Of a DNA stretch of 22,209 nucleotides, positions 3,871-14,323 are shown one piece after another. The stretch comes from a virus (lineage: Duplodnaviria > Heunggongvirae > Uroviricota > Caudoviricetes). The notes below the pieces were generated by a model that was given only the letters and a program-made list of their open reading frames with translations, had not been told where the DNA came from and ran no database searches. The DNA is taken from the IMG/VR virus record IMGVR_UViG_2526164633_000039, one strand, 5' to 3'. The translations under genes were made by a program, and so were the position numbers. Numbering within the stretch: the stretch's first letter is position 1; each line of letters starts with the position of its first letter.

Positions 3871-4062
3871 TTAAAGACCTGCCGGGATTTCGTTATTATC
3901 CTGGTGAATAACTTTATCGACCGGGTAACAGTTACCGGGAATTTTCTGTTCGGTTGCTGCAGTCACACACTCCTGCATTGTCCTGTGAACACTGACTGCA
4001 ATATCAACTGGCTCTCCGGAAACAAGAAAAACTGTCAGAACAAGTGCAAATGCTGTATTCAT
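3871..4062 (-). CDS. ydfD: Small protein (63 aa) with N-terminal hydrophobic segment, YdfD-like (Qin prophage lysis protein) by position and size
   Basis: Start ATG at 4060-4062 overlaps the dicB-like stop as ATGA. Protein MNTAFALVLTVFLVSGEPVDIAV... Sits immediately downstream of dicB as in Qin. Name is from recollection. Confidence 0.5.
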   Translation of the reverse strand: MNTAFALVLTVFLVSGEPVDIAVSVHRTMQECVTAATEQKIPGNCYPVDKVIHQDNNEIPAGL

Positions 4063-4247
4063 TGCCAGCATCCTTTTTGTATCGGACGTAAACGGGCCAG
4101 CATTGAAAGAATGCATATTTTATTTAATAACTCCCGTTCGTGTTTTCTCTTGTTAATGGCATCTTCAGTAAATACAGGGTTACTGATAGTGACACCAATT
4201 TCAAAACAACCTTCAGACGTATTAACGTTTGGTAATAACGTTTCCAT
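4059..4247 (-). CDS. dicB: DicB-like cell-division inhibitor (62 aa)
   Basis: Internal ATG of track ORF 4059..4352 at 4245-4247, preceded by GAGGA. Protein METLLPNVNTSEGCFEIGVTISNPVFTEDAINKRK... matches my recollection of E. coli DicB. DicF lies just upstream. Confidence 0.65.
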   Translation of the reverse strand: METLLPNVNTSEGCFEIGVTISNPVFTEDAINKRKHERELLNKICILSMLARLRPIQKGCWQ

Positions 4248-4427
4248 TATCGCGTCCTCAACAATGAATTTTGTGATGCGATGCCTGGTGCCTCCAGGTG
4301 ACGTTAACCAGTTAACAATTAACGCCGGATACAGAGAATCCACCCATAACACTGTTTTTGGTTTTAACTGTTCCGCGTGCGCTCAGCCGCATTCACCACA
4401 TCACAAAATTCACTTTAAAAAGGGCGG

Positions 4428-4485
4428 CAGAGCAGTCACGGAGTAAAACTGATACCGCCAAACGTCACCAGAAAATTGATAACAG
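4428..4485 (-). ncRNA. dicF: DicF small regulatory RNA (ftsZ-targeting) with intrinsic terminator
   Basis: Reverse complement of 4433-4485 reads TTTCTGGTGACGTTTGGCGGTATCAGTTTTACTCCGTGACTGCTCTGCCGCCC followed by a T-run, matching the DicF sequence as I recall it. GGCGG...CCGCC forms the terminator stem. Confidence 0.65.
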
Positions 4486-4815
4486 AGGGCGTTGCAGCGG
4501 GGTTGTCACTTAAGCGTATGGTCAACCTGACAACCCGGTGTCCTCAACGGGGGAAGGAATAACCCCGCCATACTTACCGCCGCGCCATTTCGCGGATTGC
4601 CACAACCGGAAGCGCACGGTCGACGAAAATTTAACGACAGGCTATCTATGAACCAGCTACCTCGCCGTGCGCTTTCGCGTTATGGTCTGACTTTTCAGGG
4701 AAATATCCTTTCAGTAAACTGTCAATGCCGGATGCTCACCCATGTCCGGCGCACGCACTCCACCTCACCCGTGGAGAACTCCTTAATTACCAACCTTAGC
4801 TTCGTTGGTTAGCTA

Positions 4816-7723: not shown

Positions 7724-8131
7724 ATGGCAAAAGTATTTACACAGGAAGAGCGGGAAAAAATTAAAGGACAGGTGGTGGAACTCGTGCGCCAGAGCGGTCG
7801 TGAGACGTTACGGCAACTGGAAGCTAAAACAGGTGCGACAAGATATCTGATGAGCGTTCTTGCCAGAGAGCTGGTTGCCAGTGGTGATGTATATCACTCT
7901 GGCTATGGGGTGTTCCCGTCAGAACGGGCTCGTAAGGACTGGCAAAACGCCCGCAAAAAACTCTCGAGGGCAAAGGTGAAGAAACCTGTTGTGGTTGATC
8001 CGGGCCTTATCTGGACATTACCCGACGGAGAAATACGCCGCTACGACAGGCGTATGAACATAATCTGTCGCGAGTGCCGGAAGAGCGAAGTTATGCAGCG
8101 TGTATTGGCGTTCTATCAGGGATATGCCTAG
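7724..8131 (+). CDS. Hypothetical 135-aa protein, possible winged-helix DNA-binding N-terminus
   Basis: Strong AGGAGGA RBS before the ATG at 7724. No confident family assignment. Confidence 0.5.
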   Translation: MAKVFTQEEREKIKGQVVELVRQSGRETLRQLEAKTGATRYLMSVLARELVASGDVYHSGYGVFPSERARKDWQNARKKLSRAKVKKPVVVDPGLIWTLPDGEIRRYDRRMNIICRECRKSEVMQRVLAFYQGYA

Positions 8132-8177
8132 AATTGTCACAGGTAATGAAATTAAAGAGTATTGGTTCGGATATGAA

Positions 8178-8206
8178 TTGACATTTTCGCGGCACAGAGC
8201 TAAAAA
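8178..8206 (+). promoter_or_regulatory. Candidate sigma70 promoter (TTGACA, 17-bp spacer, TAAAAA) directed toward the SIR2-like gene
   Basis: TTGACA at 8178-8183, 17-nt spacer, TAAAAA(T) at 8201-8207, about 290 bp upstream of the 8500 start codon inside an AT-rich non-coding stretch. Confidence 0.3.
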
Positions 8207-8499
8207 TAGCCTACTTGTTGGTTTTGTGTGAAAAGCAGACATTTTGAGGCTCAGGATTTGTTATCAAATAAGACCAATACTTATCTATATTAATACACAT
8301 TAAATACTGTGCAATACATTATTGCATTTTATTAGATAAGCGATATTTAGGGAAAAGAAAAGTCATAGAAAACAGGCCGCTATTTGTTGTTGGATTTTAT
8401 AGGCTATATCTAGATTATCTTGCCACTGCGGTCTCTGTTTACCTAACAGCTTGGGCTTCTTTGCATGCAAGTTTGTAATAACAAGAGTAATCAAACGGA

Positions 8500-9531
8500 A
8501 TGTCTATTAATCCTAAACTTAAGCGTATCGCGCGACGCTATCCAGCGTTATTCCAATATGAGTCCCCCTATATGGCAAGAAAATTAATAATATTCGGCAA
8601 CGGTCTCGGTATGGCTTTAGATCCTGCTCACTTCTCCTTAGACAGAGCGTTGGAAGAAATTTGGCATCGCCCCAATTTTTTAAAAGATATCCACAAGCAA
8701 CTTATCGAGCGTTGTCTTCAGCGGCAAGGTCCACCAGAAGGAGAACATGAGTTGGATACCCTTCACCAGGCTGTCACATATTGTAAAGCTCTTGCTCAAA
8801 TTGGAGAGGGGAACGTGCATTGGCTTACTGAAGATGGACTAAACTTCCCCAAAATTACCGCCACTTATATTCACAAAGTTGCAACCAGGTTGCATAATTA
8901 CGATAAAGGTTTGCCACAAAGATTCGAAAATGCGCTTGTGGAGTTTGTAAAGAACACACACTCACATATCGCGACATTAAACTATGACAAATTATTATAC
9001 AATTCATTCATAGATAATGATATATTCAACGGGTATGATGGGGTTTTAGTTGATGGGATGCTAAGCCACGGATTTTCCTCTGCAGCGCTCGAACGGAAAT
9101 ACAATCGTAGGTTTGGTTATTATTTGCACTTGCATGGTTCACCACTATTTATTAATCAGCATGAAAATGTTTTAAAACTTTCACGCTCACAACTTACTCT
9201 TGACATAGATGAACCTAGTGAGCATATAGTGTTAACTCATATAAAAAGAAAACCGTCAGTTATAGCAGCATCTAATGTTCTTTCTACGTACTGGGATTAT
9301 TTGCAGTTTGCATTATTTGAATCAGAAGAAATAATATTGTTTGGTTACTCTGGTCTCGATATTCACCTTAACCTGCTTATTCGACCTTACCTAACCTCTA
9401 AGCCTTTAAGAGTAATTGAGTGGAGCGGTGCTGGTGAACAAAACGCTCGTGAGATATATTGGAAAAACCAGTTGAGACGGGAAGTTACTGTAATTAGGTT
9501 GGATAACATCACTGATTTTATTGATTGGTAG
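8500..9531 (+). CDS. SIR2-like (sirtuin-fold, SIR2_2/DUF4020-type) protein, 343 aa; candidate NAD-consuming anti-phage defence effector
   Basis: Motifs read directly from the translation: glycine-rich IIFGNGLGMA (aa 30-39), IATLNYD (Asn161), YLHLHGS (His210/His212), ILFGYSGLDIHL (aa 279-290). These match the order and spacing of defence-associated SIR2 domains. Coding GC is far lower than the flanking prophage (about 32% in sampled 60-nt stretches). Confidence 0.65.
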   Translation: MSINPKLKRIARRYPALFQYESPYMARKLIIFGNGLGMALDPAHFSLDRALEEIWHRPNFLKDIHKQLIERCLQRQGPPEGEHELDTLHQAVTYCKALAQIGEGNVHWLTEDGLNFPKITATYIHKVATRLHNYDKGLPQRFENALVEFVKNTHSHIATLNYDKLLYNSFIDNDIFNGYDGVLVDGMLSHGFSSAALERKYNRRFGYYLHLHGSPLFINQHENVLKLSRSQLTLDIDEPSEHIVLTHIKRKPSVIAASNVLSTYWDYLQFALFESEEIILFGYSGLDIHLNLLIRPYLTSKPLRVIEWSGAGEQNAREIYWKNQLRREVTVIRLDNITDFIDW

Positions 9532-9601
9532 CGCAATGCGAAGTTAAAGAGGCAGCCTCATATTTATCAGAGCTGGTGTACGTCCAATACAGGAGGTTAT
9601 C

Positions 9602-9691
9602 GTGCTGGTTCTCAAATGCGCGCTGGCTATTGCGGCTGTAGTGGCAATTTATTGTCTTGCTATTGTTCTTATGGATCGCCTTTCTGATTGA
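9602..9691 (+). CDS. Small hydrophobic peptide (29 aa, GTG start), possible membrane-active type I toxin-like peptide
   Basis: Perfect AGGAGG at 9591-9596, 5 nt before the GTG at 9602. Translation (M)LVLKCALAIAAVVAIYCLAIVLMDRLSD is one predicted TM helix plus a short charged tail. Not in the ORF track (<60 aa). Confidence 0.4.
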   Translation: MLVLKCALAIAAVVAIYCLAIVLMDRLSD

Positions 9692-9902
9692 TTTTATATT
9701 GGCGAGGTGACGGGAGTTAAGTAGAATTGCTGCGGGTGCTTGAGGCTGTCTGCCTCGGGCATGCCACCGTAAGGCAGACAGAGAAAAGCCCCAGTTAACA
9801 TTACGCGTCCTGCAAGACGCTTAACATTAATCTGAGGCCCAATCTATGCTTCACAAACGTAGGTTAGCCTCTTACGCGCCGAAAGGCAAGGAGAAGCAGG
9901 CT

Positions 9903-10058
9903 ATGAAGCAGCAAAAGGCGATGTTAATCGCCCTGATCGTCATCTGTTTAACCGTCATAGTGACGGCACTGGTAACGAGGAAAGACCTCTGCGAGGTACG
10001 AATCCGAACCGGCCAGACGGAGGTCGCTGTCTTCACAGCTTACGAACCTGAGGAGTAA
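9903..10058 (+). CDS. hokD: Hok/Gef-family type I toxin (51 aa), HokD/RelF-like
   Basis: MKQQKAMLIALIVICLTVIVTALVTRKDLCEVRIRTGQTEVAVFTAYEPEE has the Hok TM segment and conserved Cys. An in-frame upstream extension from 9846 is mok-like. A perfect 10-bp leader hairpin lies at about 9745-9780. Confidence 0.8.
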   Translation: MKQQKAMLIALIVICLTVIVTALVTRKDLCEVRIRTGQTEVAVFTAYEPEE

Positions 10059-10126
10059 GAGACCAGGCGGGGGAGAAATCCCTCGCCACCGCTGATGTGT
10101 CAGGCATCCTCAACGCACCCGCACTT

Positions 10127-10150
10127 AACCCGCTTCGGCGGGTTTTTGTT
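10127..10150 (+). terminator. Rho-independent terminator downstream of hok
   Basis: AACCCGC-TTCG-GCGGGTT stem-loop followed by TTTTGTTTT. Confidence 0.6.
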
Positions 10151-10273
10151 TTATTTTCAACGCATTTGAAGTTCTGGACGGTGTCGGAATAGAATCAAAA
10201 ATACTTAAGTAGCGCGCAGGGATAAGAGGGATGGTCCCTTAAAGGGGAGAGCTAATTATCCGGAAGGATTCTG

Positions 10274-10525
10274 ATGATGAACATCGAAGAACTGCGTAAA
10301 ATTTTTTGTGAAGATGGCCTCTATGCTGTGTGCGTTGAAAATGGAAATATTGTTAGTCATTACCGCATTGTGTGTTTGCGAAAGAATGGGGCTGCGTTAA
10401 TTAATTTTGTGGATGGTCGAGTGACAGACGGATTTATCTTGCGCGAAGGTGAGTTTGTCACTTCATTACAGGCACTGAAAGAGATCGGAATAAAAGCTGG
10501 CTTTTCTGCTTTTTCAGAAGAATAA
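10274..10525 (+). CDS. rem: Hypothetical 83-aa protein, Rem-like (Qin prophage rem neighbour of hokD) by size and position
   Basis: GGAAGGA RBS before ATGATG at 10274. Lies immediately downstream of hok as in Qin. Identity rests on recollection and synteny. Confidence 0.45.
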   Translation: MMNIEELRKIFCEDGLYAVCVENGNIVSHYRIVCLRKNGAALINFVDGRVTDGFILREGEFVTSLQALKEIGIKAGFSAFSEE

Positions 10526-10591
10526 ACTCATCTACAATCTTGCGCGGGGCTGAACTCCCGCTGAGTAACACCGTGCCGCCGGAGGAAACCG

Positions 10592-10870
10592 ATGGCACGC
10601 AACGCAAAATATTACAATCATGATAATTCGACCGTTCTTGCCCACACGCACGAGCGGTATTCTCACGCATTTAAGTCAGACTGGTACCAGCATCCCCCAT
10701 GCACTGAAGAACAGGCCGAATGGCTCATTCAGTGTTACCGCAGGCGCGGATGCGAGGTTAAAAAAGCCCTTAGCCTCGACTACCGTCACTGGATAATCTC
10801 CGTCGGGCTTCCTTACTCCGAACGCCCACCGCGTCTGTCCCGCACATTCCAGCAACGCATCTGGAGGTAA
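10592..10870 (+). CDS. Hypothetical 92-aa protein
   Basis: Strong GGAGGA RBS before the ATG at 10592. Stop abuts the GTG start of the following gene. Confidence 0.5.
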   Translation: MARNAKYYNHDNSTVLAHTHERYSHAFKSDWYQHPPCTEEQAEWLIQCYRRRGCEVKKALSLDYRHWIISVGLPYSERPPRLSRTFQQRIWR

Positions 10871-11611: not shown

Positions 11612-11641
11612 GTAAGCGGCTCGCCAGAACCGTATTGATAT

Positions 11642-13213
11642 TTACTGAGAGGTCAGATCAACTTTCCAGGGCAACAGATCGCGTACCCGGTTTGCCGGCC
11701 AATCCTGGATATGCTCAATGACGTAACGCAGCCATTTTTCTGGTTCCACATTGTTCAGACGGCATGTGCCGATCAGCGAGTACAACACCGCCGCATGTTC
11801 GCCACCGCTGTCGGAACCCGCGAACAGCCAGTTTTTCCGGCCTACGGCCACTCCCCGTAAGGCGTTCTCTGCGATGTTGTTGTCGATTTCCACCCAGCCA
11901 TTACTGCAGTACACGTTCAGGCCATCCCACTGTTTCAGCAGGTATGCGAACGCTTTTGCCGTATCCGAGTGACGCGACAGTGTTTTCATCTGAGTCTGTA
12001 TCCAGTCATACAGTGACTGCATCAGTGGCGCAGCTCTGGCTTTTCTTGCCGCCAGACGCTGTTCTGCTGTACATCCCCGGACTTCTGCCTCTATGGCATA
12101 CAGTTCACCGATACGCTGCAGGGCTTCCGTGGTGATGTCGGTGGGCACTCTTGCATGCACATCGTGGATTTTTCTCCGGGCATGAGCCATACACGCGGCT
12201 TCCGTTATTCTGCCGGATTCGTATAACACCCGGTAACCACCGTAAGCATCGGCCTGAAGCACACCGCTGTAACCGGCCAGATGATTTTGTGGATGGATAC
12301 CTTTCCGGTCCGGTGAGTACGCGAACCAGACCGCCGGGGGCATTTCCGAACCGGCGTTACGGTCATCACGGACGTAGACCCACAGCCGGGCGGTCCGGGT
12401 TTTACCGCTGCCCGGCTCCTGGACCGGGACGGGGATATCATCAGCATGGACTTTACCGGGCATCAGCACATACTGGCGCAGGACGTCATACAGCGGCTCC
12501 AGCAGTTCAGCAACGGCACCTGTCCAGCGCCCCAGCGTGGCGCGGCTCAGCTCCACGCCCTGGCGACGGTATATTTCTGACTGGCGGTATAACGGCAGAT
12601 GGTCTGCATATTTCCCGGTAACAACATGGGCCAGAAGCCCCGCTCCGGCATAACTGCGTGCAATGGGTTTTGAAGGTACTGTTGCCTGCACGATATGGTC
12701 GCACCGACAACAGGCCAGTTTCGGACGTTGTGTTTCGATAACCTTAAAGGCGCTGCTGATAAGCTCCAGTTGCTCTGACACATCACACCCCAGAGGACTG
12801 AGGTCACCACCACAGGCCGGGCAGCATTCCTCTTCCGGCCGGATGACCCGGGTTTCACGGGGAAGTGAGGCCGGTAACGGTTTACGGGCTGAAGACTGGC
12901 GCAGGGCGGATGGCAGTACCGGGTCATATTGCTCACCCAGCGTTTCCGCCATTTCTTCCTGAAGTGCGCTGATTCGCTCCTGTGCTTCCTGTATCTGCCG
13001 TTCGGTTTTAGCGCGAAGTTTTTCTGAGCTTTTACCGAACTGCATGCGCTGCAGTTTCGCAACCAGCGCCTTCAGCCGGTTGATTTCGGAAGCATAAGCC
13101 GCCACCCGCTGTGAGAGCAGGCGGTTGTATTTCGCCATCTGGCGGATGGTGTCCTGTTGCGTCTGCAACAGTGCCCGCAGGCGGGCATTCTCATGAGCAA
13201 GTGAGGTGTCCAT
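11642..13213 (-). CDS. tnpC: IS66-family transposase TnpC (523 aa)
   Basis: Intact ORF with N-terminal coiled-coil/leucine-zipper-like region, a Cys-rich zinc-finger region (CPACGG...CCRCDH) and conserved IS66 transposase core. Confidence 0.9.
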
Positions 13214-13232
13214 ATCCTCACTTTACAACGGG

Positions 13233-13580
13233 TTATATGCGGATGCCAGCGCGTTCCGTTCGTTTCGGGTGCTTCCAGTCGATGCCTTCGAGAAGCATGG
13301 ACAACTGAGCCGGAGTAAGGTGAACCTTTCCATCGCGGGTGACCGGCCAGACGAAGCGGCCCCGCTCCAGGCGTTTGGTGAAGAGGCACAGTCCGTCACT
13401 GTCAGCCCACAGCACTTTTATCTGGTCACCCCGGCGTCCGCGGAAGATGAACAGATGCCCGGAGAACGGGTCATCCTTCAGGACGTTCTGAACTTTTGAG
13501 GCCAGGCCGTTAAAGCCATTTCGCATATCGGTGATACCGGCAACCAGCCAGATACGCGAACCGGCAGGGAGAGATATCAT
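13233..13580 (-). CDS. tnpB: IS66-family accessory protein TnpB (Orf2, 115 aa)
   Basis: MISLPAGSRIWLVAGITDMRNGFNGLASKVQ... is typical IS66 Orf2. Start overlaps the tnpA stop. Confidence 0.9.
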   Translation of the reverse strand: MISLPAGSRIWLVAGITDMRNGFNGLASKVQNVLKDDPFSGHLFIFRGRRGDQIKVLWADSDGLCLFTKRLERGRFVWPVTRDGKVHLTPAQLSMLLEGIDWKHPKRTERAGIRI

Positions 13581-14230
13581 CAGTGGCTGCTCCCTTTCAT
13601 TTCGCGGATAAGTGTCTGTAATAACGCCGGTGTCAGTTCACCTTTCAGCCTGAGAGTTCCGGCCGGCAGAACCAGCTCGCAGCACAGACTGTCTGGCAGT
13701 GTATTTATCTGTTCAGGTATCTGCACTGGTGCCGGGATTTTATTATCCGGCTCCGGAGTTAACGTCACGGGAAGTAGCGATGTTTCATGTTCGCCGGGCG
13801 GTTGCAGGCCACCGTTACGCCAGAGATGCCGCCAGTTAAAGAGCAGGTTATCGTTAATTCCATTCTCTCGAGCTATTTGTGCGACACAGGCACCGGGTAA
13901 AAGAGTTTGCTGAACCAGTCTCCATTTAAACTCCGGTGAAAATCGGTTCCGGCGGGGTTTCTCTGCTTTCACAGGCTGAGTCACGGTCGGGGCTGAAGGG
14001 TATCGCCCCGGGAAAAGAGCCCGGGCCAGTTGCCCGCAGGAATATTCACCGGAAAGAGGCCAGTCAGTGAATACCTGGTGAAATCGCCTCACCAGAGAAA
14101 AAATGGCGGTTTTGCTGACACCAGTCTGCGCAGAAATGCGCGGGTACGACAGTGACTCGTCAAATCTCAGCTGTAGCACACGCAGGATCAATTCTGGATT
14201 ATCTGCCAGTACCGCTTTTCGTGCATTCAT
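13580..14230 (-). CDS. tnpA: IS66-family accessory protein TnpA (Orf1, 216 aa as drawn; a shorter internal start is possible)
   Basis: First ORF of the element, with an HTH-like N-terminus. ATG at 14228-14230. Confidence 0.75.
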   Translation of the reverse strand: MNARKAVLADNPELILRVLQLRFDESLSYPRISAQTGVSKTAIFSLVRRFHQVFTDWPLSGEYSCGQLARALFPGRYPSAPTVTQPVKAEKPRRNRFSPEFKWRLVQQTLLPGACVAQIARENGINDNLLFNWRHLWRNGGLQPPGEHETSLLPVTLTPEPDNKIPAPVQIPEQINTLPDSLCCELVLPAGTLRLKGELTPALLQTLIREMKGSSH

Positions 14231-14323
14231 CTTAAATGTCCTTTTACTGCGAAAATGGACATTAGTATCGGAAACAGGAAAGGGAGGCGAAAGACGGTTT
14301 AAATGATGCGCTTACGTTGATCC

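What the first reader, a model, noticed from the sequence alone, without database searches (positions are those of the whole stretch)
9730..10160. hok-type type I toxin locus with mok-like in-frame leader ORF, stable leader hairpin and terminator
The 51-aa Hok-family toxin is preceded by a perfect 10-bp stem (CTGTCTGCCT...AGGCAGACAG, about 9745-9780) and an in-frame upstream ORF from 9846, and followed by a classic terminator. Whether a Sok-like antisense RNA on the minus strand (about 9780-9860) is intact decides whether the toxin is controlled or silent. Together with the SIR2-like gene and the small peptide this makes a three-gene toxin/defence cluster.
Basis: partly seen in the sequence, partly recalled or inferred. 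Interest (0 to 1): 0.4.

Follow-up and report, generated by a model that had tools for sequence, protein, structure and literature searches.

The report
Complete prophage hok/mok/sok toxin–antitoxin locus
This is an ordinary, complete copy of the well-known hok/mok/sok RNA-controlled toxin module, of the hokD/hokW type that most E. coli carry in lambdoid prophages; the neighbouring SIR2 gene is separate cargo.

Summary
Window 9734-10150 (+) is a full-length hok-family mRNA.

- It carries a promoter, a 5' tac element, the 10-bp leader stem, ucb, mok (70 codons, in frame with hok), dcb, a 51-aa Hok identical to K-12 HokD, fbi and a terminator.
- Rfam RF01794 scores 116 bits against a cut-off of 59. 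Pfam HOK_GEF gives E = 1e-23.
- Folding reproduces the published switch. In the full-length RNA tac pairs with fbi and ucb covers the mok Shine-Dalgarno. In a 3'-shortened RNA tac pairs with ucb.
It lies on the minus strand at 9854-9784 (71 nt), with promoter TTGCCT-17-TAACCT, a -30.7 kcal/mol hairpin and a U tail. The promoter hexamers are identical to those of sokW of phage Sp5, and 66 of 71 RNA positions match. sokW has been shown experimentally to work as an antitoxin.
- K-12 hokD matches only from window 9889 onward, so it lacks all of this leader.
- The same locus occurs in 4726 of 5426 complete E. coli genomes.

The "three-gene toxin/defence cluster" is not supported. The SIR2 segment (8021-9578) is precisely absent from BL21 and is present in only 46 genomes.

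Verdict: already known, low interest. Expression and toxicity of this particular copy were not tested.

The parts
9699..9727 (+). hok/mok mRNA promoter, TTGGCG-17-TAGAAT
   Evidence: Consensus scan, 9 of 12 matches. The -10 hexamer (TAGAAT, TACAAT or TATAAT) is conserved in homologs. The predicted start G9734 lies 7 nt downstream and coincides with position 1 of the Rfam model.
9734..9745 (+). tac (translational activator element), the 5' end of the mRNA: GGGUGCUUGAGG
   Evidence: Pairs with fbi in the full-length fold and with ucb in 3'-shortened folds. Nearly invariant in 25 homologs.
9746..9781 (+).
   Evidence: 89.5% of cells are paired in 25 homologs and 3 pairs change on both sides. The pair G9748-C9779 is A-U in Sp5 and BL21.
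9786..9792 (+). ucb (upstream complementary box, the anti-SD of mok): AAGCCCC
   Evidence: In the full-length fold 9788-9792 pairs with the mok SD region 9834-9838. In shortened folds 9786-9792 pairs with tac 9734-9741. tac/ucb is paired in 99.4% of cells in homologs, but the columns are invariant.
9793..9833 (+). Sok-target hairpin of the mRNA, the complement of the Sok terminator hairpin; includes an 18-nt stem extension (9804-9821) typical of the hokD/hokW lineage
   Evidence: Shown as an insertion relative to the consensus in the Rfam alignment. Present in 16 of 25 homologs, with GC to AU double changes.
9834..9837 (+). mok Shine-Dalgarno, GAGG, 8 nt before the mok ATG
   Evidence: Sequence. 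Aligns with the GAGG mok SD of R1 described in PMC9841398.
9846..10058 (+). mok reading frame, 70 codons, in frame with hok
   Evidence: Same length and frame relation as the annotated mokW and mokC. The ATG column is conserved in 23 of the 24 chromosomal and prophage homologs (L033 reads ATA); the R1 row is misaligned by one base in this column.
9784..9854 (-). Predicted Sok antisense RNA, 71 nt: unpaired 5' tail, long hairpin, U-rich tail
   Evidence: Ends mapped from the annotated 71-nt sokW of VT2-Sakai (L061 15019-15089) through alignment A1. 66 of 71 positions are identical to sokW. Fold of the 73-nt stretch 9853-9781 (minus strand), which contains most of the 71-nt RNA (9854-9784): -30.7 kcal/mol, z = -5.6. 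The 5' end overlaps the mok start by 9 nt, as in sokC of K-12.
9861..9889 (-). sok promoter: -35 TTGCCT (9889-9884), 17-nt spacer, -10 TAACCT (9866-9861)
   Evidence: The hexamers are identical in Sp5 sokW, BL21 and four other loci. R1's validated promoter aligns at the same place (TTGCGC-17-TATCCT). It scores below the 9-of-12 threshold of the scan, as R1's does.
9867..9871 (+). dcb (downstream complementary box), GCCUC, able to pair with the mok SD GAGGC
   Evidence: Paired in 97.6% of cells in 25 homologs, but the columns are invariant. Not chosen by the MFE fold of the shortened RNA.
9888..9893 (+). hok Shine-Dalgarno, AAGGAG, 9 nt before the ATG
   Evidence: Sequence. Invariant CAAGGAG in the alignment.
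9903..10058 (+). hok toxin gene, 51 aa, protein identical to HokD (RelF)
   Evidence: Pfam PF01848, E = 1.2e-23. Annotated hokD in RefSeq. 47 of 51 residues match HokW and 100% match BL21 and K-12 HokD.
10041..10044 (+). TACG motif at the Tyr47 codon, the known TadA A-to-I editing site of hokC, hokD and hokE (Tyr to Cys)
   Evidence: Sequence. TACGAA is invariant in all 25 homologs. Editing of hokD is reported in PMC5630033. Not tested here.
10066..10087 (+). 3' stem-loop, expected to be the protective 3' end of the processed (truncated) mRNA
   Evidence: Folds. 92.8% of cells are paired and 2 pairs change on both sides. The role is inferred from R1 (PMC9841398).
10108..10120 (+). fbi (fold-back inhibitory element), CCUCAA-C-GCACCC, complementary to tac
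   Evidence: 12 pairs with 9734-9745 in the MFE and centroid structures. 96.3% of cells are paired in 25 homologs. One pair is GC in 20 sequences and AU in 4.
10127..10150 (+). Intrinsic terminator of the hok mRNA
   Evidence: Terminator scan: 7-bp stem, 5 G-C pairs, T-rich tail.

Best explanation
Window 9699-10150 is a complete hok/mok/sok type I toxin-antitoxin module of the hokD/hokW lineage. It sits between the replication genes and the rem/DUF968/RusA/Q genes of a Qin/Rac-like lambdoid prophage.

The mechanism below is inferred by homology to R1 hok/sok and Sp5 hokW-sokW. The in-silico steps are shown here.

1. A constitutive promoter makes a roughly 415-nt mRNA.
2. In the full-length form, the 5' tac element pairs with the 3' fbi element, and ucb covers the mok Shine-Dalgarno. 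Neither mok nor hok is translated, and Sok cannot bind.
3. Slow 3' trimming removes fbi. tac then pairs with ucb, which frees the mok ribosome-binding site.
4. Translation of mok through the hok start allows Hok synthesis. Hok is a 51-aa inner-membrane toxin.
5. A 71-nt antisense RNA, Sok, is made from the opposite strand (9854 to 9784). It pairs with the mok start region of the trimmed mRNA, and the duplex is destroyed by RNase III.
6. As long as the short-lived Sok is made, the toxin stays off. If sok transcription stops (loss of the element, DNA damage or prophage induction, or transcription shut-off), the stable mRNA pool is translated and the cell is killed or lysed.

The locus is controlled rather than decayed.
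For: Family membership:
- Rfam RF01794 scores 116.2 bits (cut-off 59) over the full model at 9734-9908.
- Pfam HOK_GEF gives 82.9 bits.

Folding:
- The full-length fold pairs tac with fbi and ucb with the mok SD, z = -7.0.
- Shortened RNAs switch to tac/ucb pairing.

Conservation in 25 homologs from Escherichia, Shigella, Kluyvera, Pseudocitrobacter and plasmid R1:
- 89.9% of cells are paired, against 42-46% when partners are slid by 1-3 columns.
- 12 pairs change on both sides, against 4-7 in the slid controls.

Sok:
- The promoter hexamers are identical to those of Sp5 sokW, and 66 of 71 RNA positions match.
- The hairpin folds at -30.7 kcal/mol with a U tail.
- Takada et al. 2021 (PMC8621323) showed that HokW is toxic. 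They showed that sokW expressed from its own promoter neutralises it, and that mutations in the -10 region abolish protection. They also showed that RNase III and Hfq contribute.
- HokD was toxic in the assays cited by bioRxiv 10.1101/2025.08.07.668861.

Other:
- The R1 mechanism is described in PMC9841398.
- The locus is annotated hokD in RefSeq and is present in 4726 of 5426 genomes.
Against: - No transcript, processing or toxicity data exist for this copy.
- The sok promoter matches the sigma-70 consensus at only 7 of 12 positions and was missed by the scan. The validated R1 promoter also scores 7 of 12, and the functional sokW promoter has the same hexamers.
- The tac/ucb and SD/dcb helices are invariant in the alignment, so they offer no covariation support. 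The MFE of the shortened RNA pairs the mok SD with a different downstream segment than dcb.
- Chromosomal hok loci tested by Pedersen and Gerdes did not mediate post-segregational killing (as cited).
- This prophage carries an IS66-family insertion, so it may be cryptic.
- NCBIfam Hok models score below their curated cut-offs: 48.5 bits against 73.
Confidence: 0.88

Rival explanations
1. The locus is structurally complete but physiologically silent. It would be a resident, neutral passenger like the chromosomal hok loci of laboratory strains, with little or no Hok ever produced and no killing on loss of Sok.
For: [quoted passage not shown] The prophage has an IS66-family insertion in its DUF968 gene, so it may no longer be inducible. 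Nothing here measures expression.
Against: Every regulatory element is conserved, with compensatory changes. The closely related hokW-sokW (92.6% identical over the mRNA) is active from its native locus and affects lysis and phage yield (PMC8621323). A single chromosomal copy of R1 hok is lethal without Sok (PMC9841398).
Confidence: 0.1
2. hok, the 29-aa ORF and the SIR2-like gene form one three-gene toxin/defence system.
For: The three are adjacent and on the same strand. The SIR2 protein has weak matches to PADLOC SIR2 and PDC-S21 models, E = 4e-6 to 4e-4. The 29-aa ORF accompanies hok in 1327 genomes.
Against: BL21 lacks window 8021-9578 exactly and keeps hok. The SIR2 segment is in 46 genomes against 3925-4726 for hok. 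The upstream neighbour varies: DUF4209, MFS transporter, IS3, DUF977. Many hok loci of this lineage lack the 29-aa ORF (L003, L010, L012, L013 and Sp5). hok has its own promoter, antisense regulator and terminator. No enrichment of hok near defence systems was found at large scale.
Confidence: 0.02

Closest known systems
hokW-mokW-sokW of Stx2 prophage Sp5 (VT2-Sakai, AP000422), characterised by Takada et al. 2021 (PMC8621323)
   Same: Same lineage. The two are 92.6% identical over the mRNA. mok is 70 codons and in frame with hok in both. The sok promoter hexamers are identical (TTGCCT-17-TAACCT). Sok is 71 nt with 66 of 71 positions identical. Both carry the 18-nt extension of the Sok hairpin, the same tac and fbi sequences, and a prophage location.
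   Different: Four C-terminal residues differ (TAYEPEE here, VDYESEK in HokW). Sp5 has no canonical terminator hairpin after fbi. In Sp5 the locus lies near attR on the opposite strand, whereas here it lies in the early-right (nin-like) region of a Qin/Rac-like prophage.
hokD (relF) of E. coli K-12, Qin prophage
   Same: The Hok protein is identical. The hok SD, fbi, terminator and downstream rem and ydfU (DUF968) genes are the same, at 98% DNA identity from window 9889 to 10600.
   Different: K-12 matches only from window 9889 onward. relBE replaces the hok promoter, tac, ucb, the mok start, the Sok RNA and most of the sok promoter. The window holds the complete form from which the K-12 arrangement is a truncation.
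hok/mok/sok (parB) of plasmid R1
   Same: Same architecture and the same set of elements, found here by alignment and folding: tac, fbi, ucb, dcb, mok SD, a Sok promoter overlapping dcb, and a 3' stem-loop.
   Different: About 47% DNA identity, and the Hok proteins clearly diverged. R1 mok is in the +1 frame relative to hok (58-nt offset, against 57 here). R1 Sok is 64 nt without the 18-nt hairpin extension. R1 is a plasmid stabilisation system.
hokC (gef)/mokC/sokC of E. coli K-12
   Same: mokC is in frame with hokC. sokC starts 9 nt inside mok. The leader shows 67% identity to a hokC-type locus (L024).
   Different: A different Hok subgroup (84% DNA identity in the ORF). There is no 18-nt hairpin extension. 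The K-12 copy has lost its fbi region to IS186.

Membership tests
hok/mok/sok type I toxin-antitoxin family | Small Hok/Gef-family membrane toxin ORF (about 50 aa) | tested here: met
   PF01848, E = 1.2e-23, 82.9 bits against a cut-off of 22. Protein identical to HokD.
hok/mok/sok type I toxin-antitoxin family | Leader RNA matching the family covariance model (Rfam RF01794) | tested here: met
   116.2 bits against a gathering score of 59, full model 1-157, at 9734-9908.
hok/mok/sok type I toxin-antitoxin family | Overlapping mok reading frame with its own SD, starting upstream of hok and running across the hok start | tested here: met
   GAGG at 9834-9837, ATG at 9846, 70 codons. Same as the annotated mokW and mokC.
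hok/mok/sok type I toxin-antitoxin family | Long-range 5'-3' pairing (tac/fbi) that closes the full-length mRNA | tested here: met
   12 pairs between 9734-9745 and 10108-10120 in the MFE and centroid structures. 96.3% of cells paired in 25 homologs, with one GC/AU covarying pair.
hok/mok/sok type I toxin-antitoxin family | ucb sequesters the mok SD in the full-length RNA, and tac/ucb pairing replaces it after 3' shortening | tested here: met
   Both states are recovered by folding 9734-10150 against 9734-10095, 9734-10105 and 9734-9908. The pairs are conserved but invariant. This is in silico only.
hok/mok/sok type I toxin-antitoxin family | mok SD/dcb stem in the truncated RNA | tested here: inconclusive
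   GAGGC (9834-9838) and GCCUC (9867-9871) are complementary and paired in 97.6% of cells in homologs, but the columns are invariant. The MFE of the shortened RNA chooses another partner.
hok/mok/sok type I toxin-antitoxin family | Cis-encoded Sok antisense gene: a promoter inside mok, a 5' tail over the mok start, a terminator hairpin and a U tail | tested here: met
   TTGCCT-17-TAACCT at 9889-9861. RNA at 9854-9784. Hairpin of -30.7 kcal/mol. Hexamers identical and 66 of 71 nt identical to the annotated, functional sokW (PMC8621323).
hok/mok/sok type I toxin-antitoxin family | Sok RNA is actually transcribed, is unstable, and triggers RNase III decay of the truncated mRNA; the mRNA is 3'-processed | not testable with these tools
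   Requires Northern blot, RNA-seq or genetics. Shown for R1 (PMC9841398) and in part for hokW-sokW (PMC8621323).
hok/mok/sok type I toxin-antitoxin family | Toxicity of the encoded peptide | not testable with these tools
   The identical HokD peptide is listed among the previously characterised control sequences described as exerting a toxic phenotype in bioRxiv 10.1101/2025.08.07.668861. HokW (47 of 51 residues identical) is toxic (PMC8621323).
Multi-gene SIR2-based defence system that includes hok | Consistent co-occurrence of the component genes | tested here: not met
   The SIR2 segment is in 46 genomes against 3925-4726 for hok. It is precisely absent in BL21, and the upstream neighbours vary.

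The most novel reading that the evidence does not exclude
The slot immediately upstream of the hokD-type locus in Qin/Rac-like prophages may be a cargo hot spot. It holds SIR2, DUF4209, an MFS transporter, IS3 or nothing in the seven contexts seen. The unannotated 29-aa hydrophobic ORF (9602-9691) travels with hok in about a quarter of E. coli genomes and may be a real small membrane protein functionally tied to the hok module, for example as a second toxin or a modulator. Neither idea is excluded by the data. Neither has positive support beyond ORF conservation and a strong Shine-Dalgarno.
Probability: 0.15. Interest if true: 0.35.

Novelty: already known. Interest (0 to 1): 0.08.

Why it matters
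It matters little beyond correct annotation.

- The locus shows the complete regulatory form of what K-12 carries only as the truncated relBE-hokD (relF) arrangement. RefSeq annotates only the hokD CDS here, and mok and sok are left unmarked.
- For anyone studying this prophage, the module is a plausible helper of lysis on induction, as shown for hokW-sokW in Sp5. It is also a plausible prophage-retention or abortive-infection element.
- It should not be counted as part of a SIR2 defence system.

Tried and rejected
- The sigma-70 and terminator scan found the hok promoter and terminator but no minus-strand Sok promoter or terminator. I did not take this as absence. The validated R1 Sok promoter (TTGCGC-17-TATCCT) also scores 7 of 12, and the functional sokW promoter has hexamers identical to the window's. 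The Sok hairpin has internal mismatches and a stem longer than the scan allows.
- Mapping the Rfam consensus structure directly onto window coordinates gave several non-canonical pairs, caused by register shifts around the 18-nt insertion. I used thermodynamic folds for the pair lists instead.
- The first 45 kb of VT2-Sakai contained no hok. The locus is at 59.8-60.1 kb of that record.
- NCBIfam Hok models hit below their curated cut-offs, and PADLOC has no Hok model. Neither was used for membership.
- K-12 hokC (3' end replaced by IS186), L008 and L050 (visibly decayed leaders), and the short contigs L025 and L058 were left out of the covariation alignment.
- The R1 row is poorly aligned in the fbi region. 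It accounts for most of the "other" cells in helix 1.
- The three-gene cluster idea was tested by distribution and rejected.

Full report
**1. What is in the sequence**

- A 51-aa ORF lies at 9903-10058.
- An upstream ATG at 9846 opens a 70-codon frame that is in frame with it.
- A perfect 10-bp inverted repeat, CTGTCTGCCT / AGGCAGACAG, lies at 9746-9755 and 9772-9781.
- A G+C-rich hairpin with a T tract lies at 10127-10150.

The 51-aa product matches Pfam HOK_GEF (E = 1.2e-23). The leader 9734-9908 matches the full Rfam model RF01794 ("sok", modelled in the hok-sense orientation) at 116 bits against a gathering score of 59.

The 10-bp stem is the core of the longest short-range inverted repeat in the whole 22-kb window. 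The 59-nt element containing it folds with z = -4.6. The whole 417-nt transcript folds with z = -7.0.

**2. Anatomy**

A promoter-like site, TTGGCG-17-TAGAAT (9699-9727), places the start at G9734, which is position 1 of the Rfam model.

I compared the window with plasmid R1 hok/sok. My recalled R1 sequence was verified as a 100% match to many plasmids and fetched as L059. The element descriptions are those of Le Rhun et al. 2022 (PMC9841398). The named elements map as follows:

| Element | Window coordinates |
|---|---|
| tac | 9734-9745 |
| apical stem | 9746-9781 |
| ucb | 9786-9792 |
| Sok-target hairpin | 9793-9833 |
| mok SD (GAGG) | 9834-9837 |
| mok ATG | 9846 |
| dcb (GCCUC) | 9867-9871 |
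| hok SD (AAGGAG) | 9888-9893 |
| hok | 9903-10058 |
| 3' stem-loop | 10066-10087 |
| fbi | 10108-10120 |
| terminator | 10127-10150 |

**3. Does the RNA switch work in silico?**

The MFE and centroid structures of 9734-10150 pair the first 12 nt with 10108-10120, which is the tac/fbi pairing. They also pair ucb (9788-9792) with the mok SD region (9834-9838).

When the 3' end is removed (9734-10095, 9734-10105, or the leader alone), tac pairs with ucb instead (G9734-C9792 through U9741-A9786). The ucb/SD pairing is then lost.

This is the closed-to-open rearrangement described for R1. The predicted SD/dcb stem is possible, but the MFE does not choose it.

**4. Comparative support**

A protein-guided scan of one genome per species returned 53 loci. 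I aligned the full mRNA region from 25 distinct sequences. These were the window, Sp5, BL21, the Rac record, Shigella, E. albertii, E. ruysiae, E. whittamii, Kluyvera species, Pseudocitrobacter, unnamed Enterobacteriaceae and R1.

On the full-length structure:
- 89.9% of cells are paired, against 42-46% when partners are slid by 1-3 columns.
- 12 pairs change on both sides, against 4-7 in the slid controls.
- tac/fbi is 96.3% paired, with one pair that is GC in 20 sequences and AU in 4.

The window itself differs from Sp5 and BL21 by the compensated pair G9748-C9779, which is A-U in those two.

tac/ucb and SD/dcb are 99.4% and 97.6% paired but invariant. This is expected for bases that must pair with two partners, but it gives no covariation evidence.

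These structures were derived from the window sequence, which inflates "cells paired" to some extent, as the tool's control (b) warns.

**5. The antisense gene**

On the minus strand the order of features is:
- TTGCCT (9889-9884), then 17 nt, then TAACCT (9866-9861);
- then an RNA with an unpaired 5' tail;
- then a long interrupted hairpin (-30.7 kcal/mol, z = -5.6);
- then GGGGCUUUUCUC.

The GenBank record of phage VT2-Sakai (Sp5) annotates mokW, hokW and a 71-nt sokW. Alignment A1 transfers the sokW ends to window 9854 and 9784. Both promoter hexamers are identical to those of sokW, and 66 of 71 RNA positions match.

K-12 sokC likewise starts 9 nt inside mokC.

Takada et al. 2021 (PMC8621323) showed four things:
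- HokW arrests growth.
- sokW expressed from its own promoter prevents this.
- Mutations in the -10 region abolish the protection, and sokW supplied in trans restores it.
- RNase III and Hfq contribute.

The promoter scan missed this promoter only because it matches the consensus at 7 of 12 positions. The validated R1 promoter (TTGCGC-17-TATCCT) scores the same.

The 18-nt insertion that Rfam shows relative to its consensus (9804-9821) is a G+C-rich extension of the Sok hairpin. It is shared by 16 of the 25 homologs and carries compensatory changes. It is a lineage trait, not damage.

**6. mok frame**

In the window, in Sp5 and in K-12 mokC, mok is in frame with hok (57-nt offset). In R1 and in the Rac record MN652886 a 1-nt difference puts it in another frame.

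[quoted passage not shown] The "in-frame leader ORF" is therefore normal for this lineage.

**7.

K-12-type genomes match only from window 9889 onward. Upstream of that point K-12 has relE and relB.

K-12 hokD keeps the hok SD, the ORF, fbi and the terminator. It has lost the promoter, tac, ucb, the mok start, Sok and most of the Sok promoter. The window holds the complete form.

**8. Context and the "three-gene cluster"**

The window is a Qin/Rac-like lambdoid prophage. It carries DicF, dicB, a cI/cro-like pair, YdaT, DUF977, hokD, rem, DUF968, RusA, a Q-like gene, three tRNAs and STnc100.

- BL21(DE3) has the same DUF977-hokD-rem arrangement, but window 8021-9578, which holds the SIR2-like gene, is exactly absent.
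- At least 80% of that segment occurs in 46 of 5426 genomes. The hok locus occurs at that coverage in 3925 genomes, and in any form in 4726.
- Other genomes have DUF4209, MFS-transporter or IS3 genes at the same position.
- The 29-aa ORF lies outside the SIR2 segment. It accompanies hok in 1327 genomes but is missing from many hok loci of the same lineage.
- A large survey found hok enriched in prophages but not near defence systems.

hok/mok/sok is a self-contained module, and SIR2 is independent cargo.

**9. Mechanism, with status of each step**

Shown here by sequence, folding or homology:
- all cis elements are present;
- the two alternative RNA conformations are recovered;
- the Sok gene is intact.

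Inferred from R1 and Sp5:
- 3' processing of the mRNA;
- translational coupling of mok and hok;
- Sok instability and RNase III decay of the duplex;
- membrane toxicity of Hok.

The biological role was not tested here. The most direct precedent is facilitation of lysis and phage release after induction (PMC8621323). Prophage retention and abortive infection are the classical alternatives.

A further known layer is TadA editing of the Tyr codon in the invariant TACG motif (10041-10044), reported for hokD (PMC5630033).

**10. Verdict**

This is a canonical, already-known element that is present in most E. coli. The defence-cluster idea fails. Interest is low.

Noticed in passing
window 9602-9691 (+): An unannotated 29-aa hydrophobic ORF (MLVLKCALAIAAVVAIYCLAIVLMDRLSD). 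It has a GTG start and a strong SD, AGGAGG, 7 nt upstream, and it ends 7 nt before the hok -35 hexamer. The block is present in 1327 of 5426 E. coli genomes and none of the 14 sampled rows annotates it. The ORF is intact and of constant length in 7 variants, with 0-3 synonymous and 2-5 conservative non-synonymous differences. It has no Pfam, NCBIfam or PADLOC match. It could be a real small membrane protein or just conserved spacer.
   Followed up: partly
window 8021-9578 (+), ORF 8500-9531: A SIR2-like gene (Pfam SIR2_2, E = 1e-5; weak PADLOC Aga_SIR2, PDC-S21 and SIR2 hits) on a 1558-bp segment. The segment is precisely absent from BL21(DE3), and at least 80% of it is present in only 46 of 5426 genomes. 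It is a rare single-gene cargo, possibly a defence gene, inserted between the DUF977 gene and hok.
   Followed up: partly
window 11613-14315: A 2.7-kb IS66-family element (three minus-strand ORFs, 11642-13213, 13233-13580 and 13580-14230) interrupts the DUF968 (ydfU-like) gene. There is an 8-9-bp duplication of the target relative to strain FDAARGOS_1059, which lacks the insertion. The prophage may therefore be defective.
   Followed up: partly
upstream of the hokD block in L002 and L062-L065, compared with window 8021-9578: The position just upstream of the (29-aa ORF + hokD) block holds different genes in different strains: SIR2, DUF4209, an MFS transporter, an IS3 transposase, or a direct join to DUF977. 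This suggests a recombination or cargo hot spot in this prophage family.
   Followed up: partly
window 10041-10044 (+): The TACG at Hok codon Tyr47 is invariant, as TACGAA, in all 25 aligned hok loci including R1. It is the reported TadA A-to-I editing motif, which recodes Tyr to Cys in hokC, hokD and hokE (PMC5630033).
   Followed up: partly
window 4422-4473 (-), 17239-17485 (+), 17564-17754 (+): Rfam hits above gathering score: DicF sRNA (76.7 bits), three tRNAs (annotated Ile, Arg, Arg in the near-identical strain) and STnc100 (139 bits). These are typical of Qin/Rac-like and Stx-phage-like late-region leaders.
   Followed up: no
L061 14749-14815 (Sp5), compared with window 10121-10150: The experimentally studied Sp5 hokW locus keeps fbi but lacks the canonical GC-rich terminator hairpin that follows fbi in the window, BL21 and Rac copies. 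Its mRNA 3' end must be formed differently.
   Followed up: no
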